Assembly: GCA_964475045.1 (NCBI GenBank)
Contig: CAYYVD010000005.1
Span: 1-32,000, forward strand
Origin: an uncultured Desulfobacterales bacterium
Lineage (GTDB): Bacteria; Desulfobacterota; DSM-4660; Desulfatiglandales; HGW-15
Direction of reading: 5' to 3'
Length of the DNA: 32,000 nucleotides
Shown: one piece after another, positions 152-23,246 of the stretch
How the letters are laid out: the number at the start of each line of letters is the position of its first letter
Numbering within the stretch: the stretch's first letter is position 1
Notes under the pieces: model-generated
What the model saw: the letters and a program-made list of their open reading frames with translations, nothing else
Database searches by the model: none
Told to the model about the DNA's origin: nothing
Position numbers and translations under genes: made by a program

Positions 152-2521
152 CTAGGAGGCTTGCTCCTCGGCCTTTCGGGCCTTCTTGATGGCCATGTAG
201 ACCCGCTCCGGGGTCAGCGGCAGCTCCTGGATCTGAACGCCTACCGCGTCGGACACGGCGTTCAGGATGGCCGGGATGGTGGGCATGATGGCGCCCTCGC
301 CCACCTCCTTCGCCCCGAAGGGGCCGTTGGGTTCGTTGCTCTCCACGATGATGGCGTCCACGTTGGGCATGTCCAGGGCCGTGGGGATCTTGTACTCGGC
401 CAGGTTGGCGTTCAGGATACGTCCCCTGTCGTCGAACTTGACCTCCTCGAACAGGGCTTCACCCAGGCCCATGGAAAGGGAGCCCTGCATCTGGGCCTCC
501 ACCGAGGTGACATTGATGGCAAACCCGCAGTCATGGGCGTCGGTCATGCGCTCCACGGTGACCTTGCCCGTTTCCATGTCCACGCTCACCTCCACTACCT
601 GGGCGCTGGGACCGTAGGCCGGGGAGGTGCCGACCGCCGCCCCCTTGAACTTTCCGCCCAGCTCGCCGGGCTTGTACTTCCCGGTGCCCACGATGGTGCC
701 CCGTTCGAGGTAAGCGTTGCGCGCCGCTTCCCGGAAGGTCAGCGCCTCGTCGTCCGGCGGGTTGTCCAGGAACCCCCGGTGCTCCTTGATGTAACGGGTC
801 CGCAGGGTGCTGAAATCGGGGGTTCGGCCGCTGAAGACGATGTGCCCGTCCTTGACGTCCAGCTCCTGAAAGGGGACCTTGAGGGTGTCGGCGAGCACCT
901 CGAGCACTTGGCGCTTGGCGTCCTCGGCCGCCTGCTTGGTGGCGTGACCCGTCATGAGGGTCTGCCGGCTCGAGTAGGCCCCCAGGTCCACGCTGTACTC
1001 CGTGTCCCCGGAGCTGATGCGGACGTGGTCCAGGGGAACGCCCAAAGCCTCCGCGGCGATCATGGCCATGGCGGTGTCCGAGCCCTGGCCGATCTCGGCG
1101 GACCCGGTGAGGACGTGGGCCGTGCCTCCGTCCTCACTCAGCTTGACCACCACGGTGGAGTGGGCCGTGTCCGAGCGATAGATGGGGTAGCCCGCCCCGG
1201 ACACGAAAAATCCGCAGGCCATGCCCACCCCGCGTCCCTTGGGCATCTTGCCCCGTTTTTCCTTCCACCCCGACCCCTCGGCCACCGCCTCGATGCACTC
1301 CCGCATGCCGAAGCTGCTGACGTTCAGGTCGTTGCAGGTGATGTCCCCGGCGCCCATGGCGTTCTTGAGGCGGAGCTCCAGGGGGTCCATGCCGAGCTCG
1401 TCGGCGATGAGGTCGATCTGCTGCTCCCAGGCCGCCCGGGCCGCTACGCCGCCATGGCCGCGCTGGGCCCCGCAGGTGGGCTTGTTCGTGTAGACGCGCC
1501 AGCCGTCGTACTTCATGTTGGGAAGACGGTAGGGCGCGCCGAGCAGGGAACCTGCGTAGTAGACCGTGGCGATGCCGAAGCTGGTGTAGGCCCCTCCGTC
1601 GAGCGTGCACTCGTTGGTCAGGGCCATGAGGGTGCCGTCCTTCTTCACCCCCGTGGTCAGGGTGTGCTTGAACTGGTGCCTGGCCCGGGAGAAGAGGAAG
1701 ACCTGCTCCCGGGTGTAGTTCATCTTGACCGGCTTGCCGGTCTTCATGGAGAGGAGGCAGGAGGCCAGCTCCATGGTGTTGGTCCCGGCCTTGGGCCCGA
1801 AGCCGCCGCCCACGTAGGGCTTGACCACCCTCACCTTGCCCACGGGAATCCCCAAAACCATGGCCACGATGCGCTGAACATAGTGGGGGACCTGGGTGGA
1901 GGTATGGAGGGCCAGATAGCCGTTCAGGTCGAACTGGGCGAGGACGCCGTTGGGCTCCAGAAAGGCCGCATCCTGGCGTTTGTTGAGAAAGATATCCGTA
2001 CGGACGAGGTCGCACTCCTGGAAGGCCTCTTCCACGTTTCCGAATTCCTGGTGGACCTCGGCACAGATGTTGCCGGCGTACTTCTCGTGGAGCTGCGGGG
2101 CCCCTTCGGCCATGGCCTCCTCCACCGTGAGAAGGGCCGGCAGCTCCTCGTAGTCCACCCGGATCAGGGACACGGCCTCCCGGGCGGTCTCCGGATCGAC
2201 CGCCGCCACGGCCGCGATCTCGTCGCCCACGTAGCGCACCCGCTCGTGGCAGAAGACGTTTTCATCGAAGCGTGCGGGGCTGACACCGTAGGTCACGAGC
2301 CCGGCGTCCTCGGCCGTGACCACGGACTTGACCCCCGGAAGCCTCCGGGCGGCCGAGGTGTCGATGTTCAGGATCCGGCCGTGGGCGATGGGGCTCTGGA
2401 GCAGTGCCCCGAAAAGCATGCCCGGCAGGGTGAGGTCGTCGATGTACATGGCGCGGCCCGTACACTTGTCCGGGGCATCCAGGCGGGGCGCTCTGCGGTT
2501 GATCACACTGTAGGAAGCCAT
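152..2521 (-). CDS. Xanthine dehydrogenase/aldehyde oxidase-family molybdopterin-binding large subunit (4-hydroxybenzoyl-CoA reductase alpha-like)
   Basis: ORF of about 790 aa with an N-terminal RLDAPDKCTGRAMYIDDL a/b-hammerhead signature, KPYVGGGFGPK, and C-terminal PFGAKEVGEG. GGAGGA lies 5 nt before the second ATG (2521), so that start is preferred over 2527. Confidence 0.9.
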   Translation of the reverse strand: MASYSVINRRAPRLDAPDKCTGRAMYIDDLTLPGMLFGALLQSPIAHGRILNIDTSAARRLPGVKSVVTAEDAGLVTYGVSPARFDENVFCHERVRYVGDEIAAVAAVDPETAREAVSLIRVDYEELPALLTVEEAMAEGAPQLHEKYAGNICAEVHQEFGNVEEAFQECDLVRTDIFLNKRQDAAFLEPNGVLAQFDLNGYLALHTSTQVPHYVQRIVAMVLGIPVGKVRVVKPYVGGGFGPKAGTNTMELASCLLSMKTGKPVKMNYTREQVFLFSRARHQFKHTLTTGVKKDGTLMALTNECTLDGGAYTSFGIATVYYAGSLLGAPYRLPNMKYDGWRVYTNKPTCGAQRGHGGVAARAAWEQQIDLIADELGMDPLELRLKNAMGAGDITCNDLNVSSFGMRECIEAVAEGSGWKEKRGKMPKGRGVGMACGFFVSGAGYPIYRSDTAHSTVVVKLSEDGGTAHVLTGSAEIGQGSDTAMAMIAAEALGVPLDHVRISSGDTEYSVDLGAYSSRQTLMTGHATKQAAEDAKRQVLEVLADTLKVPFQELDVKDGHIVFSGRTPDFSTLRTRYIKEHRGFLDNPPDDEALTFREAARNAYLERGTIVGTGKYKPGELGGKFKGAAVGTSPAYGPSAQVVEVSVDMETGKVTVERMTDAHDCGFAINVTSVEAQMQGSLSMGLGEALFEEVKFDDRGRILNANLAEYKIPTALDMPNVDAIIVESNEPNGPFGAKEVGEGAIMPTIPAILNAVSDAVGVQIQELPLTPERVYMAIKKARKAEEQAS

Positions 2522-2597
2522 ATGCATCCTCCTTCATGGGGCGTCGGGGCGACAGGGCCTTCGACGGCGTTCGGGTTCGAGCCGGCTCGAGGGACGA

Positions 2598-3065
2598 TCA
2601 GCTCCGCCTCTCTCCTGCGGCCTGGATCGCCTCGACGATTTTCTGGTACCCCGTGCAGCGGCAGAGATTGCCCGAGATGGCGGTGCGGATCTCGTGCTCG
2701 TCAGGGGAGGGGTTTCGCTCGAGCAGGCTCTTCCCGGTCAGGATCATGCCCGAGGTGCAGAACCCGCATTGCACGGCGCCGTGGTCCACAAAGGCCTGCT
2801 GAACCGGATCCAGCCCTTGGTCCGTCTCCACCCCTTCGATGGTGGTCACGGTCCGGCCGTTTGCCTGGACCGCCAGGACGAGGCAGGAGTTCACCGGGCG
2901 GCCGTCCAGCAGGACCGTGCAGGACCCGCAGTCGCCCACCTCGCAGCCCTTCTTGGTGCCGGTGAGTCCCAGGTCCTGACGAAGCATGTCCGCGAGGGTC
3001 TGGTTCGGAGGCACGGCCACCTCCACGTTCCGTTCGTTGATCATCAGGCTGATGAGTCGCTTCAT
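2598..3065 (-). CDS. [2Fe-2S]x2 small subunit of the XDH-family enzyme
   Basis: 155 aa. CEVGDCGSCTV is a plant-type cluster motif; CGFCTSGM...CRCTGY is the second cluster. GGAGG sits 8 nt upstream of the ATG. Confidence 0.92.
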   Translation of the reverse strand: MKRLISLMINERNVEVAVPPNQTLADMLRQDLGLTGTKKGCEVGDCGSCTVLLDGRPVNSCLVLAVQANGRTVTTIEGVETDQGLDPVQQAFVDHGAVQCGFCTSGMILTGKSLLERNPSPDEHEIRTAISGNLCRCTGYQKIVEAIQAAGERRS

Positions 3066-3119
3066 GGTGTTTTCCTCCGGAATGTGCGGTTCGGCGTCTT
3101 GGACGCGACCGGTTCGCGG

Positions 3120-3992
3120 TCAGGACCGGGCGCGCTCCAGGGCCGTCTCGAGGGCCCTGCGGGTGAGGACGGAGACCATGTCACGCCGGTACTCCGCCGA
3201 GGCGCGGAAGTCGTCGATGGGCTTGGCGTCCCGGGCCGCCTCCTCGCCGGCCCGGCGAAAGAGCTCTGTGGACGCCGTCTCGCCCACCAGGGCATTCTCG
3301 GCGAAGGGGGCTCGAATGGGGACCGGCGCAACCGCTCCCAGGACCACGCGCGCCGTTTCGATCTTGTCCCCGTCCAGGGACAGGTAGGTTGCGACGTTCA
3401 CGATGGAGATCTCCAGGGTCTGCCGCACCCCCAGCTTGATGTAGGCGGCGCCGGATCTCTCGGGCGGCGTCGGAAGGTGAACGGACTCCAGGAGCTCGTC
3501 CGCGCCGGCCACGGTCACGCCCGGACCCTGGAAGAAGTCCTCCAGGGGCACCGTCCGCTCCCCCGACGGCCCGACCAGGATCACCTGGGCCCCGTAAGCC
3601 ATGAGCGGCGGGGGAAGGTCCGCCGCCGGACGGGCCGAGACCAGGTTTCCCGCCAGGGTGGCCAGGTTCCGGATCAGGGGGGACCCCAGCCGGGAGGCCC
3701 CGTCGGCCAGGGCCGGGTACCTCCGGCGGATTTCCTCGGACTCGGCCAGTTCGGCCGAGGTCGTACATGCCCCGATCCGATAGGCGTCTCCCGAGGATCC
3801 CAACATGCGCAGTTCCTCGATACGGCCGAGCGAGACCAGGTGCTCGGGCGAGAGGACCCTCTTCTTCATATGGACGAGCAGGTCCGTGCCGCCGGCCAGC
3901 GGCCGGGCCGTCTTCCCCAGGTCTCCCATGAGGCGGCGGGCCTCTTCCATTCCCGAGGGTTCGTGGTACTCGAAGCGGGGCAAAAGCATCAT
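3120..3992 (-). CDS. FAD-binding medium subunit of the XDH-family enzyme (CoxM/HcrB-like), lacking any Cys-rich insertion
   Basis: 290 aa with the LAGGTDLLVHMK FAD-binding motif. It contains one cysteine in total. GGGAGG sits 5 nt upstream of the ATG. Confidence 0.9.
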   Translation of the reverse strand: MMLLPRFEYHEPSGMEEARRLMGDLGKTARPLAGGTDLLVHMKKRVLSPEHLVSLGRIEELRMLGSSGDAYRIGACTTSAELAESEEIRRRYPALADGASRLGSPLIRNLATLAGNLVSARPAADLPPPLMAYGAQVILVGPSGERTVPLEDFFQGPGVTVAGADELLESVHLPTPPERSGAAYIKLGVRQTLEISIVNVATYLSLDGDKIETARVVLGAVAPVPIRAPFAENALVGETASTELFRRAGEEAARDAKPIDDFRASAEYRRDMVSVLTRRALETALERARS

Positions 3993-4026: not shown

Positions 4027-4602
4027 TTAAGGTCGGTCTCCCCACCGTTTGAACAGGGTGTGCTCGATTCCCAGAAAGTCGAACACCTTGCCGATGGTCT
4101 GGTCCAGGATGTCCTCGATGGTCTTGGGGTCGTGGTAGAAGGACGGCACCGGAGGCAGGATGTGGGCCCCGAGATCCGCCGCCAGGCTCATGAGCCTGAG
4201 GTGACCTTTGTGGAGTGGGGTCTCCCGCACCACCAGCACGAGCTTTCGCTTCTCCTTGAGGGTCACGTCCGCGGCCCGAATGAGAAGGTTCGTGTTGAAG
4301 GAGTTGGCGATCCCCGACAGGGTCTTGATGGTGCACGGTACCACCACCATCCCGTCAGTGAGAAAGGATCCGCTCGCCAGGGCGGCGCCCACGTCCCGGT
4401 TGTCGTAGACCCGGGTGGCCATGCTAGCCACGTCCTCGGCGCGAAGGGCCGTCTCGATCTCGATGTTCTGTCTTCCGGACTCGGACAGAATGAGGTGGGT
4501 CTCCACGCCGGTGCCCTGCAGATGCTCCAGCAGCCTCACCCCGTAGATGACGCCGCTCGCACCGGAAATCCCGACCACCAGCCGTTTGGTTCCGTGTTTC
4601 AC
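4027..4602 (-). CDS. ubiX: UbiX-type flavin prenyltransferase (prFMN synthase)
   Basis: 191 aa with the KRLVVGISGASGVIYG N-terminus typical of UbiX/Pad1. The GTG start follows GGGAGG and forms a GTGA overlap with the stop of the upstream gene (4599-4602). Confidence 0.9.
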   Translation of the reverse strand: MKHGTKRLVVGISGASGVIYGVRLLEHLQGTGVETHLILSESGRQNIEIETALRAEDVASMATRVYDNRDVGAALASGSFLTDGMVVVPCTIKTLSGIANSFNTNLLIRAADVTLKEKRKLVLVVRETPLHKGHLRLMSLAADLGAHILPPVPSFYHDPKTIEDILDQTIGKVFDFLGIEHTLFKRWGDRP

Positions 4603-5834
4603 ACATCGCCTCCCTTCCTGTCAGAGAGCACCTCCAGGGCCTCCCGGACCACGGCCTCGGCAAAGCCGGGGTCCTCCATGTTCGCGTCCACCTCCACGAC
4701 GGGAATCCGCCGGTCCAGAAGACGCCTCATCTCCTGAACGAACCTCTGATCCTCTCCGGGATCATACGTGGGATTTCCCGGCGCGTCCACCGAGGACCAC
4801 CCCTTGCGGGGGATCACCACCCGAACGGGTCCCCGGGCCTGGTTGAGCTTGCGGGCGAACTCCGCCGCCACCTGCCTCAGCTCGTCGGGGCCGTGCCGGA
4901 TCCAGGTCCGGTGCTTGTCCAGATCATACTTCCTCCGCTCGGCGTACTCGGGCTTGTACTTGCGTTTGGCCGGCGTCATGTGGTTCACGCTGCAGGTGGA
5001 CACGATCTGGGGAATGCCCGCCCGGCCTGCTGACTCCAGGCGGTCCGGACCGGCATCCCTCATGAACCCGAAGAGGTGTTCCCCCACGCCGCCCGGGGCC
5101 AGGTCCACCACCGCCTGGAACAGGCCCTCCCGAATCATGGCTTCCATGGCCCGGTCCCCGATGCCGGCCGCAGAGAACCCGGTCACCTGCAGCCCTTCGG
5201 CCTCCAGGGCCCGGCGAACGGCGCTGGCGCACTGCTCGCAGGGGCCCAGCATGGTCAGGGCCACGGCCCGGCCGTCTCGAGCGTGCGGGGAGGCCACGTC
5301 GTCCTGCACCATGCCGGCCACGGCATGGGCCGCGCGGTCCAGGACGTTCCGGAGCAGGGCGGTGACGCCGGAGATCTCCACGACGGAGTGAAACAGCGCA
5401 ATGTCGCCGGTGCCGATGTACCGTGTAGAGAGCCCCGGAAGGGCGGCCGTGGAGGAGACCATGAGCTTGGGCACCCCAAAGGGGAGGGCCCGCATGACCT
5501 CGGTGGCCATGAGGGAGCCCGTGGACCCTCCGAGCCCCACGACGCCGTGGACGCGGCCTTCGGCATGGAGCCCCCCGGCGATCCTGGAGGCGCCGTCGAT
5601 GGTGATGTTGGTGATCCGGGATCGCTCCCTCGAGGCATGAATCTCCTCCAGGGAGCTGCCGCCCGCCACGGCCACCCGGGCGGGCGGAATGTCCGCCGGG
5701 GAGGCAGCGTCCCCGCGCATGGACAGGTCCATGAGGAGGGTCTCGAGACCGAGTCGCTGCAGCTTGTCCCGCAGGTATAGCGTCTCCGGGCCCTTGGTGT
5801 CCAGGGTGGAGATCACGAGAACGGTCTTCGGCAT
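4599..5834 (-). CDS. UPF0261 / Tm-1-like ATP-binding domain protein, function unknown
   Basis: The KTVLVISTLDTKGPETLYLRDKL N-terminus matches my memory of the UPF0261 family. AAGGAG lies 9 nt before ATG 5834, so the upstream ATG at 5873 is probably not the start. Confidence 0.75.
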   Translation of the reverse strand: MPKTVLVISTLDTKGPETLYLRDKLQRLGLETLLMDLSMRGDAASPADIPPARVAVAGGSSLEEIHASRERSRITNITIDGASRIAGGLHAEGRVHGVVGLGGSTGSLMATEVMRALPFGVPKLMVSSTAALPGLSTRYIGTGDIALFHSVVEISGVTALLRNVLDRAAHAVAGMVQDDVASPHARDGRAVALTMLGPCEQCASAVRRALEAEGLQVTGFSAAGIGDRAMEAMIREGLFQAVVDLAPGGVGEHLFGFMRDAGPDRLESAGRAGIPQIVSTCSVNHMTPAKRKYKPEYAERRKYDLDKHRTWIRHGPDELRQVAAEFARKLNQARGPVRVVIPRKGWSSVDAPGNPTYDPGEDQRFVQEMRRLLDRRIPVVEVDANMEDPGFAEAVVREALEVLSDRKGGDV

Positions 5835-5863
5835 GGGGTGCGGCTCCTTGTCTTGATGCGGGA

Positions 5864-5992: not shown

Positions 5993-7651
5993 CTAAGAGG
6001 CCTGCTCCGCGGCCACCTGCTCCGCAATCATCTTCTTGAGGGTCTCCTTGTTCACCTTGCCCGAGTCCCCCACGGCCGGGAACTCGTCCACGATCTCGAG
6101 CCGCTCGGGGATCTTGTACTTGGCCAGCTGCTTGTCGATGAGGAAGTCCTTCATCTCGTCGAAGGTGAAGGCCTCCCCCTGCTTGGGAATCACATAGGCG
6201 CAGCAGCGCTCTCCCATCTCACGGTCCGGGTAGCCCACAATGGCCACGGAGGAGACCTTGGGGTGCTCGTTGAGCAGGCCTTCGATCTCGGCGGGGTAGA
6301 TGTTCTGCCCCCCGCGAATGACCATGTCCTTGGCCCGGCCCAGGATCCAGAGACAGCCCTGGTCGAACTTGACGATGTCTTCCGTGGTGCACCATCCGTC
6401 CTCGTCGAACACGGTGGCGGTGAGCTCCTCGTCCCGGTAGTACCCGGCCGGTGCGTGGGGACCGCGAAAGTAGAGGATTCCGGGCTCACCGTCGGGCACC
6501 ACGTTCCCCTCCTCGTCCACGAGCCTCACCTTGTTGCCGGGCAGCATCCGTCCCACGGTGCGCCTTCGAAGCTCCGGCGGGTCCTCGACACGGCACCCGG
6601 AGACCGAGCCCTTGTCCTGGGTTCCCAGGTCGCTCGTGATGGATGCCTGAAAGGCCGCCTCGGCCTCCTCGGCCACCTGCGGCGACAGGTATCCGCCTGC
6701 CGAGCGGATGAACCGAAGGGAGCTCAGGTCGTACTTGGAGGGGTCCGCCTCGAGCATTCGAATGAGGTGGGTCGGCACCACGCCGATGGCCGTTGCGCCC
6801 TCCTTTTGAATGAGCTCCAGGGCCCCTTCCGGTGTGAACTCCTCCAGCATGACCGTCTTGGCGCCCGCCAGCGGGGCGGCGAAGTAGGTGAGGGTGCCGG
6901 CCGCTCCTCCGGCATGGGGGGCGATGGCCATGGTGATGTCGTCCCGGTTCAGCCCCCAGATGTCCACGCGGCCTTTGGATGTGCAGACCCGGGGCGCCGT
7001 GGGCCACTCCACGAGCTTGGGGATCCCGGTGGTGCCGCTCGTGGTGGTGAGAAGGGCCACGTCCCAGCAGGAATCCAGCCTCCGTTCCTGGAGCATACCC
7101 TCGTCCACGGGCTTCTCGGCGCGCTCGTAGGCGAGCCGGGTCAGGGAGTAGGTGCCTTCCGGGGCGTCCGCCGGCACCTCGTCGTCGAACAGGAAGAAGT
7201 GCTTCAGGTGCGGAAACTGCTGCTGGAGCCCCCGGTACATGTCCAGGTAGTCGAAGTTGCGGTAGATCTTGGGAATCACCACCGCGGCGGCTTCGGTCTT
7301 CTCCACCATGTACTCCAGCTCGCGCTGCCGGAGGTAGGGGTAGACCGTCAGTGTGATGAGCCCCGCCCGCTCGCCGGCGATCCGGGCCAGGAACCCGAAC
7401 ACGCTGTTGGGAGACTGGATGATGATTCGGGAGGACTTGGGGATGCCCATCTCCACCCAGGCCGAGGCAATGGCGTCCACCAGGCGCTTGGCTTCGGCCC
7501 AGGTCACGCGGTACTTGGCGTCCACCAGGGCTTCCCGATCGCCCATCTCCCGGGCGTTCCGGTCGTAGAAATCATAGAAAAGCTCGTTCGTCCAGTGCCC
7601 GTCCCGGACAAACTCGTCCACCATGGCCTGCTTGTATCGAATCGGCTTCAC
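5993..7651 (-). CDS. AMP-forming aryl/acyl-CoA ligase (adenylate-forming superfamily, DhbE/EntE-like)
   Basis: 552 aa with the TTTSGTTGIPKLV P-loop, FGMAEG-like LGTQDKG, GWCTTEDI, RAKDMVIRGGQNIYPAEIE and a terminal GDSGKVNK lysine. The GTG start has GGAGGG 6 nt upstream. Confidence 0.9.
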   Translation of the reverse strand: MKPIRYKQAMVDEFVRDGHWTNELFYDFYDRNAREMGDREALVDAKYRVTWAEAKRLVDAIASAWVEMGIPKSSRIIIQSPNSVFGFLARIAGERAGLITLTVYPYLRQRELEYMVEKTEAAAVVIPKIYRNFDYLDMYRGLQQQFPHLKHFFLFDDEVPADAPEGTYSLTRLAYERAEKPVDEGMLQERRLDSCWDVALLTTTSGTTGIPKLVEWPTAPRVCTSKGRVDIWGLNRDDITMAIAPHAGGAAGTLTYFAAPLAGAKTVMLEEFTPEGALELIQKEGATAIGVVPTHLIRMLEADPSKYDLSSLRFIRSAGGYLSPQVAEEAEAAFQASITSDLGTQDKGSVSGCRVEDPPELRRRTVGRMLPGNKVRLVDEEGNVVPDGEPGILYFRGPHAPAGYYRDEELTATVFDEDGWCTTEDIVKFDQGCLWILGRAKDMVIRGGQNIYPAEIEGLLNEHPKVSSVAIVGYPDREMGERCCAYVIPKQGEAFTFDEMKDFLIDKQLAKYKIPERLEIVDEFPAVGDSGKVNKETLKKMIAEQVAAEQAS

Positions 7652-7718
7652 GTCGTTCCCTCCATTGATGTCGCATCGGTTGACCGCGAACGCCGGGGGA
7701 CTCGGGCGTCCATCGGTT

Positions 7719-8240
7719 TCACTTCTTGCCTTTGGATCCGCGCTCCCTCAGGCTGGCCTTGAAGTTGTCCCAGAACTCCTTGTTCGTGTCCTGCCAGGCG
7801 GCCCCCCACCTCCGCTCGAAGTAGGATGTGGGAAGGCGTTCCCTCCAGGCCGTCCAGGGGTTCTCCCCCTTGGCGCGGGCCTCGAAGACGTCCTCGAGGA
7901 AGACCTCGATGTTCGAGAGCTCCTCCTTGGGCAGGTAGGACAGCGCGCCCTTCTTGATGGAGCGCATCAGATGCTCCGGGGCGAACGCGTGGGCCGTCAG
8001 CATGACGGCCGGAATGTTCCGGGCCACCGCGATCTCCAGGAGGCGGTAGCCGTTCACGCCCATGATATCCAGGATGGCGAGATCGAAGGCCTCGTTCGCC
8101 AGGTGGTCCCGGGCCTCCTCGAAGGCGGCCGCCTGCACCAGCTCGCACATGGGCAGGAGCTCCTCCAGGGTGCTAAGAATGTCCCTCTCGTCGTCCACCG
8201 CCAGGATGCGTTTGCCCTCCAGGGGGCTCTTGTCCGGCAT
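7719..8240 (-). CDS. Stand-alone response-regulator receiver protein with a short Trp-rich C-terminal tail
   Basis: ILAVDDERD, DLAILDIMGVNG (phospho-Asp), MLTAHA and KKGALSYLPKE are receiver motifs. The tail of about 50 aa, ENPWTAWRERLPTSYFERRWGAAWQDTNKEFW, has no recognisable output domain. Confidence 0.85.
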   Translation of the reverse strand: MPDKSPLEGKRILAVDDERDILSTLEELLPMCELVQAAAFEEARDHLANEAFDLAILDIMGVNGYRLLEIAVARNIPAVMLTAHAFAPEHLMRSIKKGALSYLPKEELSNIEVFLEDVFEARAKGENPWTAWRERLPTSYFERRWGAAWQDTNKEFWDNFKASLRERGSKGKK

Positions 8241-8357: not shown

Positions 8358-9767
8358 CTACAGCCCCAGCTCCTTCCATCGGGACTCCACTCGTTTCCTC
8401 ACCTCGGGATCCAGCTCGATTTGAATGGGTTTTTGTTTCCACTCGTACGGAATGGTGGCGTCCAGCAGCAGCCGGCCGGTGATCTCCCGTGCGTCGATGG
8501 GCAGGGAAGGATCCAGGGGCGTGGACCGTCCCCGTTTGATGACCTGGGAGCGGTTGGGCTGGAACCGGAAGCTCAGGGCGTACATGACCCTGGGAATATC
8601 CCAGGAATCGATGTCCTCGTCCACCACAATCACGGTCTTGAGCCCGTAAGCGCCCATCTCCGTGGAAACCGCCGCCGTGAGCACCTGGTCCGCATGCCCC
8701 GGGTACATGGTCTTCATGGAGATGATGGCCAGGAACCGTCCCGATCCCTCGGGCGGGCAGTAAACCGACTTGATCCCGGGGATATGCATCTCGTCCGCGA
8801 GCTGCTGCCACAGGGTGGCGCCGTAGGACAGGGCCATGACCATGTGGGTGTCCGTGACCGCACGACCCACCGTGGTGCAGTACATGATGGGGTTGTCGCG
8901 ATGGGTCACGCACTTGATGTCCATGTAGTTCCGGGGGTCCGTGCCCACACCCGAGTAATAGCCCGTGTACTCGCCGAAGGGACCCTCGTCCATGAACTTC
9001 TCGGCGTCACACTCGCCTTCCAGCACGATCTCGGCATGGGCCGGGATGGGAAGATCCACGGTTTCGCCCTGCACCACCTCGCAGGCCTCGCCGCGGATGG
9101 AGCCGTACACGTCGTACTCGCTGATGCCGGCCGAGACCCGGGCCGCCCCGAGAATGAAGAGCAGCGGGTCGCATCCGATGATCGAGGCACAGGGCATGGG
9201 CTTGCCCATGGCCTGGTACTTCTTGAGCATCTGATCGGCGTGCTTTCCCTTGATGAACTGGGTCCCGATCTTGTCCTTGCCCAGCAGCTGGGAACGGTAC
9301 GTGCCCAGGTTCACCCAGCCGGTGTCGGGGTCCTTGGTGAGAATGAAGTGGGCCGTGCCGATGTAGCGTCCCCCGTCCATGGGAAAGAAGTGGGGCACGG
9401 GAAACCTGTAGAGGTCCACGTCGTCGCCCGTGATGATGTTCTGCTTGCAGGGGGCGTCCTTCTTGTCCACCCACTTGGGCGGAATGGGGTTGTGCCCCAT
9501 GTCCACCCACGCCCTGAGGATCTCCGGCAGCGGTGTCTCCTTGGGCCTGCCGAGGATGAGGGCCAGCTTCTGGGCGGTGGTGCACGTGGAGGTGATCACG
9601 GGTGTGTCGTAGTCCTTGACGTTCTCGAAGAGCAGGGCCGGACCGTGGGCTTCCTCGTTGAGCTTGGCAATGTGAGAGAGCTCCAGGTTCCAGTCCACCT
9701 CGGCGGTGATGCGTTTGAGTTCCCCTTCTTTTTCCGCCAATTCGATGAAATCACGCATGCTTTTCAT
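8358..9767 (-). CDS. UbiD-family prFMN-dependent (de)carboxylase (phenylphosphate carboxylase alpha/beta-like)
   Basis: 469 aa with AEIVLEGECD...EGPFGEYTGYY, the UbiD signature. The size matches the PpcA/PpcB class. Confidence 0.9.
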   Translation of the reverse strand: MKSMRDFIELAEKEGELKRITAEVDWNLELSHIAKLNEEAHGPALLFENVKDYDTPVITSTCTTAQKLALILGRPKETPLPEILRAWVDMGHNPIPPKWVDKKDAPCKQNIITGDDVDLYRFPVPHFFPMDGGRYIGTAHFILTKDPDTGWVNLGTYRSQLLGKDKIGTQFIKGKHADQMLKKYQAMGKPMPCASIIGCDPLLFILGAARVSAGISEYDVYGSIRGEACEVVQGETVDLPIPAHAEIVLEGECDAEKFMDEGPFGEYTGYYSGVGTDPRNYMDIKCVTHRDNPIMYCTTVGRAVTDTHMVMALSYGATLWQQLADEMHIPGIKSVYCPPEGSGRFLAIISMKTMYPGHADQVLTAAVSTEMGAYGLKTVIVVDEDIDSWDIPRVMYALSFRFQPNRSQVIKRGRSTPLDPSLPIDAREITGRLLLDATIPYEWKQKPIQIELDPEVRKRVESRWKELGL

Positions 9768-9951: not shown

Positions 9952-11022
9952 TTATCCCTTCAACTTGATTCGTTTCATGGCCTGGGCCATGAGGAGATCC
10001 CGGCCGCTTTTCTTTCCCAGCTTGGACTCCGTCTTTCTCTGACTCCACACGGTCTCCGGGCGGCCCTGGACGATGAAGATGTTCTCGGGGAAGGGCTCCG
10101 CCTCATCGATGGCCCACTCGATGTCCATGGGAACCCCGTAATGCTTTTCGATCTGCTTGGCCAGCTTGGTCAGCTCTCTGGTCTCCCGGTCCTCGAGACA
10201 GCAGAGGCACCCCTTTTCGGGATCCAGCTCCGCCTCCATGACCTCTCCGTGCTCCGGATCGAACACGCAGGCCACGTGCTTGGTGGAAACGTTCTTGTCG
10301 GTGGGCTCCAGCAGCACCTTGTCCATGGTGAACCGGTCGGGGTTCACCGTTCCGCCCACCACGGTCTCGCCGAGTCCCCAGGCCCCTTCGATGACGACCT
10401 TGGACACATCCCCGTCCGTGGGGTTCAGGGAGAACATCACGCCCGCGCACTTGGCGTTCACCATCTTCTGGACGCCCACGCTGATGAAGACCTTTTCGTG
10501 GGGAAAATCATTCCGAATGCGGTAGCTCACGGCCCGGGGCGTGAAGAGACTGGCCCAGCAGTCCTGCACCCTCTTCAGGACCCGGTCCGTGCCGACGACC
10601 CACAGGTGGGTGTCCTGCTGCCCGGCGAAGCTCGCCGTGGGCAGGTCCTCGGCCGTGGCGCTCGAGCGCACGGCCACGGGAAGGTTCTCCTCGGAGCACC
10701 TGAGGCAGAGCCCGGCATACGCCTCGGTGACGGCCGAGCGCATGTCCTCCGGCATGGGGGCGTTTCGAATGAGCTCCTGCACCTGCTCGCTGGCCTTGTG
10801 CACCGCGTCCACCGCTCCCAGCTGAAGCCCGGACAGCAGCTCGTACATCCGTTCCAGAATGCCCGTTCGATGAATGAAGTCCTCGTAGCAGGTGGTGGTG
10901 ACCGCGAAACCCGGCGGCACCCGGATGCCCGCCTTGAGCATTTCCCCCAGGCTGGCGTTCTTCCCGCCCACCAGCGCCAGGGAACCCTTGTCGAGGTTCT
11001 CGAATCGTTCCGTGTAGCTCAT
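9952..11022 (-). CDS. PEP/pyruvate-binding (ATP-grasp) domain protein, phenylphosphate-synthase beta-like (pair 1)
   Basis: 356 aa (~40 kDa). LVGGKNASLGEMLKAGIRVPPGFAVTT is the N-terminal nucleotide-binding part of PEP synthase. It has no phosphohistidine domain. Confidence 0.85.
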   Translation of the reverse strand: MSYTERFENLDKGSLALVGGKNASLGEMLKAGIRVPPGFAVTTTCYEDFIHRTGILERMYELLSGLQLGAVDAVHKASEQVQELIRNAPMPEDMRSAVTEAYAGLCLRCSEENLPVAVRSSATAEDLPTASFAGQQDTHLWVVGTDRVLKRVQDCWASLFTPRAVSYRIRNDFPHEKVFISVGVQKMVNAKCAGVMFSLNPTDGDVSKVVIEGAWGLGETVVGGTVNPDRFTMDKVLLEPTDKNVSTKHVACVFDPEHGEVMEAELDPEKGCLCCLEDRETRELTKLAKQIEKHYGVPMDIEWAIDEAEPFPENIFIVQGRPETVWSQRKTESKLGKKSGRDLLMAQAMKRIKLKG

Positions 11023-11090: not shown

Positions 11091-12953
11091 CTAGCCGACG
11101 CGTTCCAGGACGGTCACCACCCCGGTGTCGCCGTCCACCCGGATGATGTCCCCGGTCTTGATGCCGGCCGTGGCGATTCCCGTGCCCGTGACCGCAGGGA
11201 CCCCGTACTCCCGGCACACGATGGCGGCGTGGCTGGTCAGGCCCCCGATGTCGGTCACCGCACCGCGAATCTTGGCGAACACCGGCGCCCAGGACGGGTT
11301 GGTGTTGGGACAGACGAGGATCTCGCCGTCCTGGAGGTCCGTGATGTCCTTGAGGAGCTTCAGGACCCGGGCCGGACCTTCGTTCACGCCGGCCGAGGCC
11401 GCGAACCCCTTGATCTCGGAAAGGTCCTTGGCATCCTCGGCGGACACGCCCTTGAGCCACTCCTGGACCTTGTCTGTGGTGACGCCCCAGAGCATGATGG
11501 TGAAGGGCTCGGCCACCTCCTCGGGCGGGACGCCCAGGGCGGGGGGCGGGCTCCATTGCTGTGCGGCCTCCAGGATTTTTCTCCGCTTGGCCACCTTGGC
11601 CTTGTAGTACTGCCCGCGCACCGGAATGCCCTCGCCCAGGGCCCAGCCGGTGGACAGCTCGGTCAGGAGCTCCGGGATCTCGTAGCGGTGGAACATGAAG
11701 ATGTCGTCCGCCTCTTCGATGAAACCGTGATTCACCAGGAGCTGACCGAAGGTCCGCACCTTCTCGAACCAGATGGTGTGAAACCAGTGCTCCACCCAGA
11801 ACAGGTGATCCTCGGCGTAGCGGTAGATGGTGCGAATGGTGTTGTAGGCGTCGTCAAAGGACTTGCGGTCCTCGTCCGTGGAGATGAGGTCCAGGTACTG
11901 TCCGACGACCTTTTCCCGCTCCTGGTCGATGCTCTCGATGTTGCGCTCGATGGTCTCGCCCTTGTCCAGCAGGTTGAGGTATCCCTGGATGTAGCTGAAG
12001 GGGATGTCGAGGGTGTTGCACCAGCTGCCCTCGTAGTGGAACCACCCGCTGCCGCAGGACACGGAGAACCACGGGTCCTTGGCCTTCTCCAGCTCGGCGA
12101 GCCACTTGCGGCCGTCCTCGGTCCCTTCCAGCTCCTGAATCTTAACCTCGGCGCTCTTCTCGGCCTGGAGAACCTCCTTGACGGCCGGCAGGGAGTCGGC
12201 GAGCCGGGAGAGGCGGCAGAGCTCTTCCTCCGGCCTGAACATGGAGACGTACGCGCCGGCCACCATCTTGCCGATGGCGCTCTCGCTGATGCCCGGGAAG
12301 AGCTTGCGGCACACGTCGCCGAACATGAGGTAAGCCAGGTAGCTCAGGTTCAGCATCTCGAAGTGATACTGCCAGGCCTTGATCATGAGGTTGACCATGC
12401 GATCGAAGGTCTCGAGGATGTCGTAGGAGATGTAGCATCCCGTGGGCGCCGGGAGCACCTCCTCTTCCGGGACGTACTTGGGAAAGGCCGTGGGAATGTC
12501 CAGGCCCTTCATTTCCTCGCCCAGGGCCTTGAACTTGGTCAACCACTTGTCCCACATCTCGTCGTAGTGCTCGAAGATGTAGAAGACACGCTTTTCGAAA
12601 TGGGCCGCTTTCTCGCCGATGATCTCGTCGGGCGGCGGGGCCACGGCGCAGATGTAGAGGTAGCCGCCCACCAGGCGCTGGGCGATGCCCTGGGCCGGTG
12701 GAATACAGAAGACGCGTGTGGTGTACTGGGAGAGGGAGATTTGCCAGGCCTCCTGAAAGATGAGGTCCAGGGGCGGCATGGGGTCGGGTGCGTGGATCTT
12801 ATCCTGGTACCAGAAGTTGGACTTTTCCCAGTCCGAACGTTCTCCCAAGGTGAACAGGAAATGGGAGGGGTACATCTCCTCCCAGCCTTCGAGCTCCGGT
12901 GGAACCTGAAAATCGTGTGGATCCGGGAACCTTCCTGCCTTGTCTTCTGCCAT
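11091..12953 (-). CDS. PEP-utilising mobile-domain protein, phenylphosphate-synthase alpha-like (pair 1)
   Basis: 620 aa (~70 kDa) with C-terminal GGLTSHAAIVCREYGVPAV (phosphohistidine codon at 11229-11231). The N-terminal region is PDPHDF..EGWEEMYPSHFLF. GGGAGG sits 6 nt upstream of the ATG. Confidence 0.85.
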   Translation of the reverse strand: MAEDKAGRFPDPHDFQVPPELEGWEEMYPSHFLFTLGERSDWEKSNFWYQDKIHAPDPMPPLDLIFQEAWQISLSQYTTRVFCIPPAQGIAQRLVGGYLYICAVAPPPDEIIGEKAAHFEKRVFYIFEHYDEMWDKWLTKFKALGEEMKGLDIPTAFPKYVPEEEVLPAPTGCYISYDILETFDRMVNLMIKAWQYHFEMLNLSYLAYLMFGDVCRKLFPGISESAIGKMVAGAYVSMFRPEEELCRLSRLADSLPAVKEVLQAEKSAEVKIQELEGTEDGRKWLAELEKAKDPWFSVSCGSGWFHYEGSWCNTLDIPFSYIQGYLNLLDKGETIERNIESIDQEREKVVGQYLDLISTDEDRKSFDDAYNTIRTIYRYAEDHLFWVEHWFHTIWFEKVRTFGQLLVNHGFIEEADDIFMFHRYEIPELLTELSTGWALGEGIPVRGQYYKAKVAKRRKILEAAQQWSPPPALGVPPEEVAEPFTIMLWGVTTDKVQEWLKGVSAEDAKDLSEIKGFAASAGVNEGPARVLKLLKDITDLQDGEILVCPNTNPSWAPVFAKIRGAVTDIGGLTSHAAIVCREYGVPAVTGTGIATAGIKTGDIIRVDGDTGVVTVLERVG

Positions 12954-13271: not shown

Positions 13272-13318
13272 TTATAGAAAACCGATGATAACCCCTGCTT
13301 TTGCTTTTGGGAGGCCCG

Positions 13319-16022: not shown

Positions 16023-16025
16023 GGG

Positions 16026-16685: not shown

Positions 16686-16730
16686 GGCAGGCTCCTTCCC
16701 GGTGCTTTGGCCTCGCTCGGTGTTCGTTGT

Positions 16731-17759: not shown

Positions 17760-17786
17760 GTGATCTCACTCCTTTTGGGTCGGGCG

Positions 17787-17827
17787 GGTGAGGGCGCCCG
17801 GACCCGGTCGTCCGGGACACCCTCACC
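17787..17827. repeat. Interrupted 15-bp stem-loop in the ppsA2-ppsB2 intergenic spacer
   Basis: GGTGAGGG (17787-17794) pairs with CCCTCACC (17820-17827). An inner stem pairs CCCGGAC (17797-17803) with GTCCGGG (17810-17816). Confidence 0.5.
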
Positions 17828-17868
17828 GCGTACCTTTGGAATGGCCCGTCGGGGCGGGCCCGGCCGGG

Positions 17869-19548: not shown

Positions 19549-19798
19549 GCTTGCCTCCTTTTGTGTGGGGATGGATGGGCCGTCTCGAAAGTGGTTCGGA
19601 CGGGGTTTCTTCGACCGGCCGGGCATCCGGGACCGGACGTCTGGACTGAAAAGCGATGGGCGCAGCATGGAGAGCGGGGATCGAGCCGGACGAAAAACCG
19701 CGTCAAGAACCGGCGGCCTCGGACCGCTGGTGAAGCACAAGGCTGCAGAGAGATCGGGATCGAGAGAGCAGAAGGCCCATTGTGGTTTTCCGGCGTTC

Positions 19799-23198: not shown

Positions 23199-23246
23199 TT
23201 GACTTGTCAAAACAATTGAATTTATATTGATATAAGTTTTTCTTAT
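23199..23246. promoter_or_regulatory. LysR operator plus divergent promoter module, copy B (SDR operon / lysR-2)
   Basis: The dyad is ATAAGtttttCTTAT (23232-23246). TGTCAA (23205-23210) reads TTGACA on the minus strand, 21 nt away. On the plus strand, TTGACT (23199-23204), N18 and TATATT (23223-23228) form a sigma70-like promoter for lysR-2, whose predicted start falls in the dyad. Confidence 0.65.

What the first reader, a model, noticed from the sequence alone, without database searches (positions are those of the whole stretch)
4027..5834. UPF0261/Tm-1-like ATP-binding protein translationally coupled to UbiX
The UPF0261 gene stop and the ubiX GTG start share a GTGA overlap (4599-4602). An RBS (GGGAGG) lies inside the upstream gene's 3' end, implying stoichiometric co-expression.

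As I recall, bacterial UPF0261 genes are usually paired with a TIM-barrel PEP-hydrolase-like partner. That partner is absent here.

UbiX needs dimethylallyl monophosphate, and the metabolic source of that compound is poorly defined in most bacteria. An ATP-binding protein of unknown function welded to ubiX is a plausible candidate for a prenyl-phosphate-supplying kinase or a prFMN/UbiD maturation factor. This is speculation from gene context only.
Basis: inference. Interest (0 to 1): 0.65.

Follow-up and report, generated by a model that had tools for sequence, protein, structure and literature searches.

The report
Kinase-like gene in anaerobic phenol operon
A conserved ATP-binding, kinase-like gene with an unknown substrate sits in the operon that strictly anaerobic bacteria use to degrade phenol; its overlap with the cofactor gene ubiX is a local quirk, and its constant neighbour is the aryl-CoA ligase gene.

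Summary
On the minus strand, a 411-aa UPF0261/Tm-1-like gene (4599-5834) ends in a GTGA overlap with the GTG start of ubiX (4027-4602). A GGGAGG sits 6 nt upstream of that start, and no TIM-barrel partner is present.

The pair lies inside a strict-anaerobe phenol operon: ppsA-ppsB-ubiD(ppcB)-receiver-CoA ligase-UPF0261-ubiX-hcrBCA. The same order occurs in 80 Desulfobacterota genomes.

The overlap itself is not conserved (0 of 68 loci). In 43 of 76 loci, other genes sit between UPF0261 and ubiX. The CoA ligase is directly upstream in 75 of 75 loci. In a sister clade ubiX changes position while UPF0261 stays with the ligase.

In published Desulfatiglans anilini proteomes, the UPF0261 protein annotated at the same cluster position is phenol-induced and far more abundant than UbiX. 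A paralogue is induced on aniline, where UbiX is not detected.

The only characterised family enzyme is MarK (2025), an ATP-dependent kinase of phenolic hydroxyls. The window protein keeps MarK's ATP motif but has a different, strictly conserved acceptor pocket.

Best reading: a pathway kinase with a new specificity tied to the ligase step, not a UbiX-dedicated DMAP supplier. That rival is not excluded (about 0.15).

The parts
4599..5834 (-). UPF0261/Tm-1-like/MarK-family ATP-binding protein, 411 aa. ATP motif D12-T13-K14. Acceptor-pocket residues G197, P198, S221, H285, T287, L305, V349.
   Evidence: Pfam and NCBIfam. PDB 9MPY at E=1.6e-61. AF2 pLDDT 96, best folds Tm-1 and MarK. Pocket alignment.
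4027..4602 (-). ubiX, flavin prenyltransferase, 191 aa, GTG start.
   Evidence: PF02441 at 7.4e-42. NF004685 at 257.6 bits (cut-off 188) and TIGR00421 at 239.5 bits.
4599..4602 (-). GTGA stop/start overlap of UPF0261 and ubiX.
   Evidence: Read directly from the sequence. Not conserved in relatives: 0 of 68 loci.
4609..4614 (-). Shine-Dalgarno-like GGGAGG, 6 nt upstream of the ubiX GTG, inside the UPF0261 coding sequence.
   Evidence: Read directly from the sequence.
5844..5849 (-). Shine-Dalgarno-like AAGGAG, 9 nt upstream of the UPF0261 ATG.
   Evidence: Read directly from the sequence.
5993..7651 (-). AMP-forming aryl-CoA ligase, 552 aa, DHB-AMP-ligase-like. It is the invariant upstream neighbour of UPF0261.
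   Evidence: PF00501 and PF13193. Directly upstream in 75 of 75 loci.
7719..8240 (-). Receiver-only (CheY-like) response-regulator protein, 173 aa.
   Evidence: PF00072. Conserved at this position in 22 loci.
8358..9767 (-). UbiD-family carboxylase, phenylphosphate carboxylase beta type (PpcB).
   Evidence: TIGR02724 at 505.5 bits, cut-off 469. UbiD_N, UbiD and UbiD_C domains.
9952..11022 (-). PpsB-like ATP-grasp component of phenylphosphate synthase.
   Evidence: PF01326 at 3e-115.
11091..12953 (-). PpsA-like swivel-histidine component of phenylphosphate synthase.
   Evidence: PF00391. NF006153 at 853 bits.
3120..3992 (-). FAD subunit of a 4-hydroxybenzoyl-CoA-reductase-like molybdenum enzyme (HcrB-like).
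   Evidence: PF00941 and PF03450.
2598..3065 (-). 2Fe-2S subunit (HcrC-like).
   Evidence: PF01799 and PF00111. TIGR03193 at 187 bits, below its cut-off.
152..2527 (-). Molybdopterin subunit (HcrA-like).
   Evidence: TIGR03194 at 916.6 bits, just below the 994.55 cut-off.
13301..14314 (+). LysR-type regulator, divergent from the pps genes.
   Evidence: PF00126 and PF03466. A LysR gene holds the same position in 49 related loci.

Best explanation
The gene encodes a 'solo' UPF0261 (Tm-1/MarK-family) ATP-binding enzyme, meaning it has no TIM-barrel partner.

It is a fixed, substrate-induced component of the phenol-to-benzoyl-CoA operon of strictly anaerobic Desulfobacterota. That operon runs ppsAB (phenylphosphate synthase), ppcB (UbiD-type carboxylase), aryl-CoA ligase, UPF0261, ubiX, hcrBCA.

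The most likely mechanism is a MarK-like, ADP-forming phosphotransferase. ATP would bind at the conserved D12-T13-K14 site of the N-terminal domain. The phosphoryl group would go to a small hydroxyl acceptor held in a remodelled C-terminal pocket.

The acceptor is most probably a pathway aromatic at or near the ligase step. Candidates are 4-hydroxybenzoate, 4-hydroxybenzoyl-CoA or phenol. It is less likely a prenyl alcohol for UbiX.

The 4-nt overlap with ubiX is lineage-specific operon compaction, not a sign of a dedicated partnership.

Shown: family membership, fold, an intact ATP motif, a distinct conserved pocket, the conserved gene order and the invariant ligase adjacency.
Shown only for the D. 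anilini protein annotated at the same cluster position, from published data; no sequence comparison linked it to the window protein: phenol induction.
Inferred: kinase activity, the identity of the acceptor and the physiological purpose.
For: Family and fold:
- Both UPF0261 domains are present and NF002674 is above its cut-off.
- The match to MarK (9MPY) is E=1.6e-61 over the full length.
- The AF2 model has pLDDT 96. Only Tm-1 and MarK match both domains.

Known chemistry:
- MarK phosphorylates phenolic hydroxyls with ATP, giving ADP. It replaces the PpsAB-homologous dikinases AcvAB/HpeHI ahead of a carboxylase.

ATP site and pocket:
- The ATP motif D-T-K is 100% conserved in 79 clade members.
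- The pocket is strictly conserved but different from MarK: P198 79/79, S221 77/79, H285 74/79, T287 79/79, L305 78/79.
- The pocket signature tracks genomic context. TIM-barrel-paired proteins and Tm-1 read G-V-H-M-N-H. MarK and the P. putida acv-type protein read G-T-H-F-I-H-H. The window clade reads G-P-S-H-T-L-V.

Genomic context:
- The gene order is conserved in 80 genomes.
- The ligase is directly upstream in 75 of 75 loci, and the junction is 0 nt or less in 12 of 78.
- When operon modules are rearranged in the sister clade, UPF0261 stays with the ligase and ubiX moves.
- Aryl-phosphate-type phosphatases turn up around it: LMWPc between ligase and UPF0261 in 21 sister-clade loci, and a HAD protein in 13 loci.

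Expression in D. anilini:
- H567DRAFT_02057 (UPF0261) has area 0 / 5e7 / 5e7 / 2.5e9 on 4-aminobenzoate / aniline / benzoate / phenol. UbiX reaches only 3.9e7, and only on phenol.
- Paralogue 03869 is induced on aniline and 4-aminobenzoate, without UbiX.
- Each pathway (phenol, aniline) has its own paralogue. That is expected of a pathway enzyme, not of a cofactor-supply enzyme.
Against: - No activity has been measured for this clade.
- H219 and H304 are kept in more than 90% of MarK homologues and in about 85% of family representatives. H219 hydrogen-bonds the phenolic oxygen in MarK. Both are lost here (S221, L305). A phenolic acceptor is therefore not assured.
- The operon already encodes a phenol-phosphorylating enzyme (PpsAB), so a second kinase needs a rationale.
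- ubiX, often with the prFMN chaperone gene lpdD, is the commonest downstream neighbour in both clades.
- All these loci descend from one or a few ancestral arrangements, so the counts are not independent observations.
- Orthology of the window protein to D. anilini 02057 rests on annotation, size and locus-tag order, not on a sequence comparison (one search failed to find it).
Confidence: 0.45

Rival explanations
1. The protein serves UbiX, either as a kinase that makes dimethylallyl monophosphate (for example prenol + ATP) or as an ATP-dependent factor for prFMN delivery or maturation in the absence of oxygen.
For: - ubiX lies within two genes downstream in 69 of 76 main-clade loci and in about 14 of about 25 longer sister-clade loci.
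- The genes inserted between the two often belong to prFMN handling or plausible DMAP supply: LpdD chaperone in 23 loci, HD phosphohydrolase in 19 loci, and NUDIX in L082.
- Loss of the phenol-binding histidines fits a non-phenolic acceptor.
- Strict anaerobes need an oxygen-independent prFMN maturation route, and none is known (PMC10865409).
Against: - The overlap is unique to this window (0 of 68).
- In rearranged operons ubiX moves away while UPF0261 stays with the ligase: L110, L113, L114, L117, L124 and L073, L077-L080.
- L081 and the D. anilini aniline cluster contain UPF0261, ligase, UbiD and Pps-like genes but no ubiX. The paralogue is abundant when UbiX is undetected.
- In D. anilini the protein is about 65 times more abundant than UbiX.
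- Some of the same clusters carry NUDIX or HD genes that could already make DMAP from DMAPP.
- By published description, the Thauera phenol cluster has ubiX but no gene matching UPF0261.
Confidence: 0.15
2. The protein is a nucleotide-binding accessory or coupling subunit rather than a free-standing small-molecule kinase. It might partner the aryl-CoA ligase or the PpcB carboxylase. It could stand in for the PpcC/PpcD subunits that strict anaerobes lack. It could handle the phosphoryl group of phenylphosphate. It could also link ligase-derived AMP or PPi to phosphorylation.
For: - Ligase adjacency is invariant and junctions are often overlapping.
- D. anilini-type clusters lack ppcC and ppcD, and the authors infer a different carboxylase mechanism.
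- Tm-1 itself acts by ATP-bridged protein binding.
- The sister clade replaces D-T-K with E-E-K, which suggests altered nucleotide chemistry.
- In MarK the ATP and acceptor sites are 25 angstroms apart and the mechanism is unresolved.
- Pps-like dikinase genes recur near UPF0261 in unrelated contexts (L085, Thermomicrobium).
Against: - The acceptor pocket is strictly conserved in the clade, which argues for small-ligand binding.
- The window clade keeps the canonical catalytic Lys motif.
- No interaction data exist.
- The aniline-pathway synthase and carboxylase were reconstituted in E. coli from the Pps-like and UbiD-like subunits alone.
Confidence: 0.2
3. The protein is a straightforward MarK orthologue: a redundant, cheaper ADP-forming kinase for phenol or para-carbonyl phenols, working beside the AMP-forming PpsAB.
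For: - About 25% of genomes with an aromatic kinase carry both MarK and dikinase homologues.
- A sulfate reducer's energy budget for phenol activation is a recognised problem.
- The gene is solo, like MarK.
Against: - Two of MarK's three conserved pocket residues are missing (H219 to S, H304 to L), as is the ketone-binding H348.
- Some of the same loci carry a separate paralogue with a true MarK-like pocket: D-T-K-G-T-H-F-V-H-F in L035, L058 and L123. The window type is therefore something else.
Confidence: 0.1

Closest known systems
MarK (Saro_1862) of Novosphingobium aromaticivorans, PDB 9MPY (PMC12624787, 2025)
   Same: - Same two-domain UPF0261 architecture over the full length (E=1.6e-61, about 38% identity).
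- Same D-T-K ATP motif, including the Lys that raises MarK activity about 1600-fold.
- Both lack a TIM-barrel partner.
- Both sit in an aromatic catabolic operon that pairs phosphorylation with a carboxylase, with a CoA ligase nearby in the P. putida acv-type cluster.
   Different: - The acceptor pocket is remodelled: T196 to P, H219 to S, F283 to H, I285 to T, H304 to L, H348 to V.
- The partner carboxylase is UbiD/prFMN-type, not biotin-type.
- The operon also encodes the PpsAB dikinase that MarK replaces elsewhere.
- The hosts are strict anaerobes.
Tm-1 N-terminal region of tomato (PDB 3WRW, 3WRX, 3WRY) and the bacterial UPF0261 + TIM-barrel 'PEP hydrolase family' (TBST) pairs
   Same: - Same fold (TM-score 0.81-0.87).
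- ATP is bound by the N-terminal domain.
   Different: - No TIM-barrel partner is fused or adjacent.
- The pocket signature G-V-H-M-N-H-[IL] of the paired type is replaced by G-P-S-H-T-L-V.
- Tm-1's known role is protein binding, not catalysis.
H567DRAFT_02057, 'UPF0261 family' protein of the Desulfatiglans anilini phe cluster (PMC6114531, PMC7500099)
   Same: - Same position between the 552-aa 'DHB-AMP ligase' (02058) and ubiX (02056), followed by the Mo-enzyme subunits.
- Similar length (403 aa).
- Phenol-induced at protein level in published supplementary data.
   Different: - It is never discussed or assigned a function in those papers.
- Orthology is inferred from annotation and locus-tag order, not from a sequence comparison made here.
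PpsAB, HpeHI, AcvAB and CreHI two-component phenolic dikinases
   Same: - Same kind of chemistry (ATP-dependent phosphorylation of a phenolic OH ahead of a carboxylation).
- Encoded in the same operon here.
   Different: - Unrelated fold (ATP-grasp plus swivelling histidine domain).
- They form AMP + Pi rather than ADP.
Known prFMN-supply factors: UbiX, LpdD chaperone, Nudix (NudJ/B/F/I) and ThiM as DMAP sources
   Same: - Genomic proximity to ubiX, and in relatives to lpdD and to NUDIX or HD genes.
   Different: - No sequence or fold relation to any of them.
- Linkage to ubiX breaks when operons rearrange.

Membership tests
UPF0261 / Tm-1-like ATP-binding family (PF06792 + PF23189) | Both N- and C-terminal UPF0261 domains over the full length. 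| tested here: met
   PF06792 at 1.2e-53 (residues 3-178) and PF23189 at 3.6e-67 (residues 190-402). NF002674 at 375 bits, cut-off 335.
UPF0261 / Tm-1-like ATP-binding family (PF06792 + PF23189) | Two-domain fold as in Tm-1 and MarK. | tested here: met
   AF2 pLDDT 96.1, pTM 0.92. Foldseek against Tm-1 gives TM 0.81-0.87 and against 9MPY E=8.5e-36. No other PDB protein matches both domains.
MarK-type multiple aromatic kinase | N-terminal ATP motif D14-T15-K16. | tested here: met
   Window D12-T13-K14. K is conserved in 79 of 79 clade members.
MarK-type multiple aromatic kinase | Conserved phenol-binding pocket G195 / H219 / H304, kept in more than 90% of MarK homologues. | tested here: not met
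   Only G197 is kept. H219 becomes S221 (77/79) and H304 becomes L305 (78/79).
MarK-type multiple aromatic kinase | Clustered with acvCDEF/hpeCBAD biotin-dependent carboxylase and HAD phosphatase genes. | tested here: not met
   The window has a UbiD-type carboxylase and no biotin carboxylase. The MarK-type arrangement is seen in P. putida YC-AE1.
MarK-type multiple aromatic kinase | ATP-dependent, ADP-forming phosphorylation of phenolic substrates. | not testable with these tools
   Requires an enzyme assay.
Classical UPF0261 + TIM-barrel (TBST / 'PEP hydrolase family') pair | Adjacent or co-encoded PF09370-type TIM-barrel protein. | tested here: not met
   None in the window or in 146 related loci. 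Present next to UPF0261 in Thermomicrobium and Haloarcula.
UbiX flavin prenyltransferase (downstream gene) | Full-length match to UbiX family models above their cut-offs. | tested here: met
   NF004685 at 257.6 bits (cut-off 188). TIGR00421 at 239.5 bits (cut-off 108.9).
Strict-anaerobe phenol (phe) catabolic cluster of the D. anilini type | Gene content and order ppsA-ppsB-ppcB-ligase-UPF0261-ubiX-Mo-enzyme subunits, without ppcC or ppcD. | tested here: met
   Window map. The same order is found in L001-L080. D. anilini locus tags 02053-02059.
Strict-anaerobe phenol (phe) catabolic cluster of the D. anilini type | Induction by phenol. | not testable with these tools
   Shown only for D. anilini 02057, with area 2.5e9 on phenol against 5e7 or less on other substrates.
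   ubiX moves or is absent in L073, L077-L081, L110, L113, L114, L117 and L124, while the ligase stays adjacent.
   Overlap in 0 of 68 loci. The D. anilini abundance ratio is about 65:1.
   Requires biochemical reconstitution.

The most novel reading that the evidence does not exclude
The window protein represents a third, uncharacterised specificity class of the UPF0261 kinase family (pocket G-P-S-H-T-L-V). It is confined to UbiD-type aryl-carboxylation operons of strict anaerobes, and its acceptor is not a MarK-type phenol.

It would make DMAP from a prenyl alcohol, or drive oxygen-independent prFMN delivery or maturation.

An equally unexcluded alternative is O-phosphorylation of 4-hydroxybenzoyl-CoA or 4-hydroxybenzoate. 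That could ease reductive dehydroxylation by the Hcr-type enzyme or recycle the phenylphosphate phosphoryl group.
Probability: 0.15. Interest if true: 0.8.

Novelty: new variant of a known kind. Interest (0 to 1): 0.52.

Why it matters
Anaerobic phenol degradation by sulfate reducers and syntrophs has two acknowledged gaps.
- These organisms lack the PpcC and PpcD subunits of the Thauera carboxylase.
- It is unclear how they can afford up to four ATP equivalents for activation (PMC6114531).

A phenol-induced, abundant ATP-binding enzyme sits in every such operon examined here. That covers 80 genomes plus a sister clade of 66 metagenomic loci. It has never been discussed and is an obvious candidate for the missing piece.

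MarK (2025) gave the family its first activity. That makes the question directly testable with a short substrate panel.

If the acceptor were instead a prenyl alcohol, the protein would be the first dedicated DMAP-forming enzyme for the UbiX/UbiD system.

Either outcome would add a new specificity class, recognisable by its pocket signature, to a widespread 'unknown function' family.

Tried and rejected
- ORF 7648-8148 (166 aa) was first taken as a gene between ubiD and the ligase. It has no family hit and an Arg/Gly-rich wrong-frame look. The real gene is the receiver protein at 7719-8240.
- Context look-ups for P0124, P0126 and P0129 gave contigs too short to be informative. The window's own protein is not on record in the contig index.
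- I tried to identify D. anilini 02057 and 03869 among the retrieved proteins by matching published length and mass. No exact match was found. No sequence comparison therefore backs the orthology to 02057, which remains inferred from annotation and gene order. The pocket type of 03869 is unknown.
- Literature searches for 'UPF0261' (8 papers, none on phenol clusters) and 'Tm-1-like' with 'ATP-binding' (0 papers) found no prior functional proposal for this gene.
- I considered a reverse kinase reaction (phenylphosphate + ADP giving ATP). I set it aside on rough thermodynamic grounds from my own estimate. Phenylphosphate has a lower group-transfer potential than ATP, and the energy is needed for carboxylation. 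It cannot be tested here.
- The AF2 model confirms the fold, but the tool gives no coordinates, so pocket geometry and docking could not be examined.
- The terminator and promoter scan between the ligase and hcrB found nothing on the coding strand that would split the operon.
Full report
**1. The observation**

All relevant genes are on the minus strand. The 411-codon ORF 4599-5834 ends ...GGA GGC GAT GTG TGA. The next ORF starts GTG at 4602-4600, so the two share GTGA at 4599-4602. GGGAGG (4614-4609) lies 6 nt upstream of that GTG, inside the upstream gene.

The upstream product carries both UPF0261 domains: PF06792 at 1.2e-53 and PF23189 at 3.6e-67. It passes the NCBIfam subfamily NF002674 (375 bits, cut-off 335). 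The downstream product is a full-length UbiX (NF004685 at 257.6 bits, cut-off 188).

No TIM-barrel 'PEP-hydrolase-like' gene is present. Pfam scans of every substantial ORF found none. tblastn with two authentic partners also found none.

A 4-nt overlap is unremarkable, though. Four of the 21 same-strand junctions in this window have one.

**2. What surrounds it**

The minus-strand gene order is:
- PpsA-like (11091-12953)
- PpsB-like (9952-11022)
- UbiD-type phenylphosphate carboxylase beta (8358-9767; TIGR02724 at 505 bits, cut-off 469)
- a receiver-only protein (7719-8240)
- an AMP-forming aryl-CoA ligase (5993-7651)
- UPF0261
- UbiX
- the FAD, 2Fe-2S and molybdopterin subunits of a 4-hydroxybenzoyl-CoA-reductase-like enzyme (3992 down to 152)

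No terminator-like site on the coding strand interrupts ligase-UPF0261-ubiX-hcrB.

This is the anaerobic phenol cluster of the Desulfatiglans anilini type. By locus tag and annotation, that cluster runs:
- 02059 ppcB
- 02058 'DHB-AMP ligase' (552 aa)
- 02057 'UPF0261 family' (403 aa)
- 02056 ubiX
- 02055/02054 'CODH' medium and small subunits

It lacks ppcC and ppcD (PMC6114531, PMC7500099).

**3. Is the UPF0261-ubiX linkage recurrent?**

Yes, but it is not the tightest linkage and the overlap is not conserved.

A scan of one genome per species returned 80 Desulfobacterota loci encoding proteins 61-85% identical to the window protein. Almost all show ppsA-ppsB-ubiD-ligase-UPF0261-...-ubiX, often followed by hcrBCA.

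The ligase is directly upstream in 75 of 75 loci with enough sequence. For ubiX the counts out of 76 are:

| Position of ubiX | Loci |
|---|---|
| Directly downstream | 26 |
| After one or two inserted genes | 43 |
| Far away | 3 |
| Not seen | 4 |

At nucleotide level:

| Junction | 0 nt or less | 20 nt or less | Median gap |
|---|---|---|---|
| ligase to UPF0261 | 12 of 78 | 32 of 78 | 64 nt |
| UPF0261 to ubiX | 0 of 68 | 10 of 68 | 690 nt |

The inserted genes are of three main kinds:
- a CBS-pair protein resembling PpsC, in 26 loci
- the prFMNH2 chaperone LpdD (PF21758), in 23 loci
- an HD-domain protein, in 19 loci

One 58%-identical relative has ligase-UPF0261-NUDIX-CBS-LpdD-UbiX-hcrB. 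None of these accessory genes is present in the window.

**4. A natural experiment in the sister clade**

An exhaustive HMMER search shows the window clade is isolated. Its nearest outside representatives are 58%, 47% and 43% identical.

The 47% clade (P0122 type) was sampled in 66 metagenomic loci. It sits in a second family of pps-ubiD-ligase clusters. It shares the derived pocket residues P198 and S221. Its ATP motif reads E-E-K instead of D-T-K.

Operon modules are shuffled in this clade:
- In about 14 loci the order is ligase-UPF0261-LpdD-UbiX.
- In L113, L117 and L124, ubiX (in L117 and L124 followed by lpdD) opens the operon about 8 kb upstream of UPF0261.
- In L110 and L114 the order is ubiD-[another UPF0261 paralogue]-lpdD-ubiX-ligase-UPF0261.
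- In L081 there is no ubiX within 8 kb.

UPF0261 of this type follows the ligase in nearly all of these arrangements. The exception is a 57-58% subclade (L134, L137, L138, L142), where a PpsB-like gene is directly upstream.

In 21 loci a low-molecular-weight phosphotyrosine/aryl-phosphatase-family gene (PF01451) is inserted between the ligase and UPF0261.

The conserved module is therefore ligase-UPF0261. ubiX-lpdD is a separate, mobile module.

**5. Expression evidence from the literature**

This comes from Supplementary Table 1 of PMC7500099. Its columns are 4-aminobenzoate, aniline, benzoate and phenol.

| Protein | 4-aminobenzoate | aniline | benzoate | phenol |
|---|---|---|---|---|
| 02057 (UPF0261) | 0 | 5.0e7 | 5.3e7 | 2.5e9 |
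| 02056 (UbiX) | 0 | 0 | 0 | 3.9e7 |
| 03869 (UPF0261 paralogue) | 5.4e9 | 6.5e8 | 0 | 0 |

- For 02057, replicates 2 and 3 on phenol are 4.2e9 and 6.7e8.
- The authors note that UbiX is found only in phenol-grown cells.
- Paralogue 03869 lies between a PpsB-like gene (03868) and an acyl-CoA synthetase (03870) in the aniline cluster.

Three points follow. Expression of UPF0261 and UbiX is far from stoichiometric. UPF0261 reaches the abundance range of catabolic enzymes. Each pathway has its own UPF0261 paralogue, as it has its own dikinase, UbiD enzyme, ligase and reductase, but not its own UbiX.

That pattern fits a pathway enzyme better than a cofactor-supply enzyme. Neither paper discusses these proteins.

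**6. What the family does**

Until 2025 the family had no known catalytic activity. MarK (Saro_1862; PDB 9MPY) is now shown to phosphorylate the phenolic hydroxyl of acetovanillone and related aromatic ketones and aldehydes. It uses ATP and gives ADP. It acts ahead of a biotin-dependent carboxylase and functionally replaces the two-component dikinases AcvAB/HpeHI (PMC12624787). Those dikinases are homologues of PpsAB (PMC12167813).

The window protein matches MarK over its whole length (E=1.6e-61). A high-confidence model (pLDDT 96) matches only Tm-1 and MarK across both domains.

The ATP motif D14-T15-K16 is intact (D12-T13-K14) and invariant in the clade.

The acceptor pocket is not MarK's:

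| MarK residue | Window residue | Conservation in clade (n=79) |
|---|---|---|
| G195 | G197 | 78 |
| T196 | P198 | 79 |
| H219 | S221 | 77 |
| F283 | H285 | 74 |
| I285 | T287 | 79 |
| H304 | L305 | 78 |
| H348 | V349 | V 69, A 10 |

H219 hydrogen-bonds the phenolic oxygen in MarK. It is kept in about 85% of 150 family representatives.

The pocket signature correlates with genomic context:
- TIM-barrel-paired proteins (Thermomicrobium, Haloarcula) and Tm-1 read G-V-H-M-N-H-[IL].
- MarK and the acv-type protein of a P. putida plasmid read G-T-H-F-I-H-H. That plasmid carries CoA ligase-UPF0261-biotin carboxylase-HAD.
- The window clade reads G-P-S-H-T-L-V.

Some phenol loci also carry a separate paralogue with a MarK-like pocket (L035, L058, L123).

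The window protein is thus a member of the family. It is not a MarK orthologue. It is the first example examined of a third specificity class.

**7. Most likely mechanism and its rivals**

I commit, at about 0.45, to the following. The protein is an ATP-dependent, MarK-like phosphotransferase dedicated to the phenol pathway. It is functionally tied to the ligase step. Its acceptor is a pathway aromatic (4-hydroxybenzoate, 4-hydroxybenzoyl-CoA or phenol).

MarK's preference for phenols with a para carbonyl makes the ligase's substrate and product chemically natural candidates. This point is inference.

Rivals:
- A UbiX-serving DMAP kinase or prFMN factor (about 0.15). The frequent ubiX/lpdD neighbourhood and the loss of the phenol-binding histidines favour it. 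Operon rearrangements, the ubiX-less clusters, the abundance ratio and the co-occurring NUDIX and HD genes count against it. E. coli Nudix enzymes and ThiM are known DMAP sources.
- A nucleotide-binding coupling or accessory subunit of the ligase, carboxylase or dikinase (about 0.2).
- A plain redundant MarK-type phenol kinase (about 0.1). The pocket argues against it.

About 0.1 is left for something else. No activity has been measured, and the related loci are not independent samples.

**8. Novelty and verdict**

The gene's presence and its phenol induction can be seen in published D. anilini supplementary data. I found no paper that interprets it.

Its inference of a special bond with UbiX is only partly supported.

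What remains is a worthwhile lead. An abundant, pathway-induced kinase-family enzyme with a new, sharply conserved pocket sits in every strict-anaerobe phenol operon sampled. The subunit composition and energy budget of that pathway are open questions. I rate it a new variant of a known kind, with interest about 0.5.

Noticed in passing
window 15138-19740 (minus strand): A second PpsB-like/PpsA-like dikinase pair (16731-17759, 17869-19740) is followed by an unannotatable 219-aa protein (16026-16685) and an ARMT1/DUF89 'damage-control phosphatase' (15138-16022). This suggests a second aryl-phosphorylating system for another substrate, such as aniline or a cresol.
   Followed up: no
window 7719-8240 (minus strand): A receiver-only (CheY-like) protein sits between ubiD and the ligase, and is conserved at that position in 22 related loci. 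The overlapping 166-aa ORF 7648-8148 is a wrong-frame artefact whose tblastn 'conservation' comes from this gene.
   Followed up: partly
L082 1747-3953; L001-L080 between UPF0261 and ubiX: The slot between UPF0261 and ubiX collects accessory genes: the LpdD prFMNH2 chaperone (23 loci), an HD phosphohydrolase (19 loci), a CBS/PpsC-like protein (26 loci) and, in L082, a NUDIX hydrolase. The HD and NUDIX genes are candidate DMAPP-to-DMAP enzymes for UbiX in strict anaerobes.
   Followed up: partly
L092-L157 (e.g. L095 3904-4506, L113 9424-9978): In 21 sister-clade loci a ~200-aa LMWPc-family (low-MW phosphotyrosine/aryl phosphatase) gene with a CCGNRERS motif lies between the aryl-CoA ligase and UPF0261. 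It could be the missing phenylphosphate-dephosphorylating function of clusters that lack PpcD.
   Followed up: partly
L092-L142, sister-clade UPF0261 genes: The sister clade replaces the family's D-T-K ATP motif with a strictly conserved E-E-K, while sharing the P198/S221 pocket residues. This hints at altered nucleotide or phosphoryl-donor chemistry.
   Followed up: no
L081 6573-9251: Two UPF0261 genes lie in tandem, with pocket signatures D-T-K-G-T-V-F-L-H-Y and E-E-K-G-I-P-L-S-Y-L. They are followed by ligase-UbiD-PpsA-like genes with no ubiX within 8 kb. This could be a heterodimer of a canonical and a divergent subunit.
   Followed up: no
L035 683-1885, L058 321-1547, L123 2939-4120: Some phenol loci carry an additional UPF0261 paralogue with a near-MarK pocket (D-T-K-G-T-H-F-V-H-F). 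These are likely genuine phenolic kinases encoded beside PpsAB.
   Followed up: no
window 152-3992 (minus strand): The Mo-enzyme large subunit scores just under the 4-hydroxybenzoyl-CoA reductase alpha equivalog cut-off (916.6 against 994.55 bits). The FAD subunit matches the HcrB model only partly. The substrate assignment of this reductase is probable but not certain. The D. anilini papers annotate the homologues as CO dehydrogenase subunits.
   Followed up: no
window 13301-14314 and 23245-24174 (plus strand): Two LysR-type regulators are transcribed opposite to the catabolic genes. A LysR gene occupies the equivalent position upstream of ppsA in 49 related loci.
   Followed up: no
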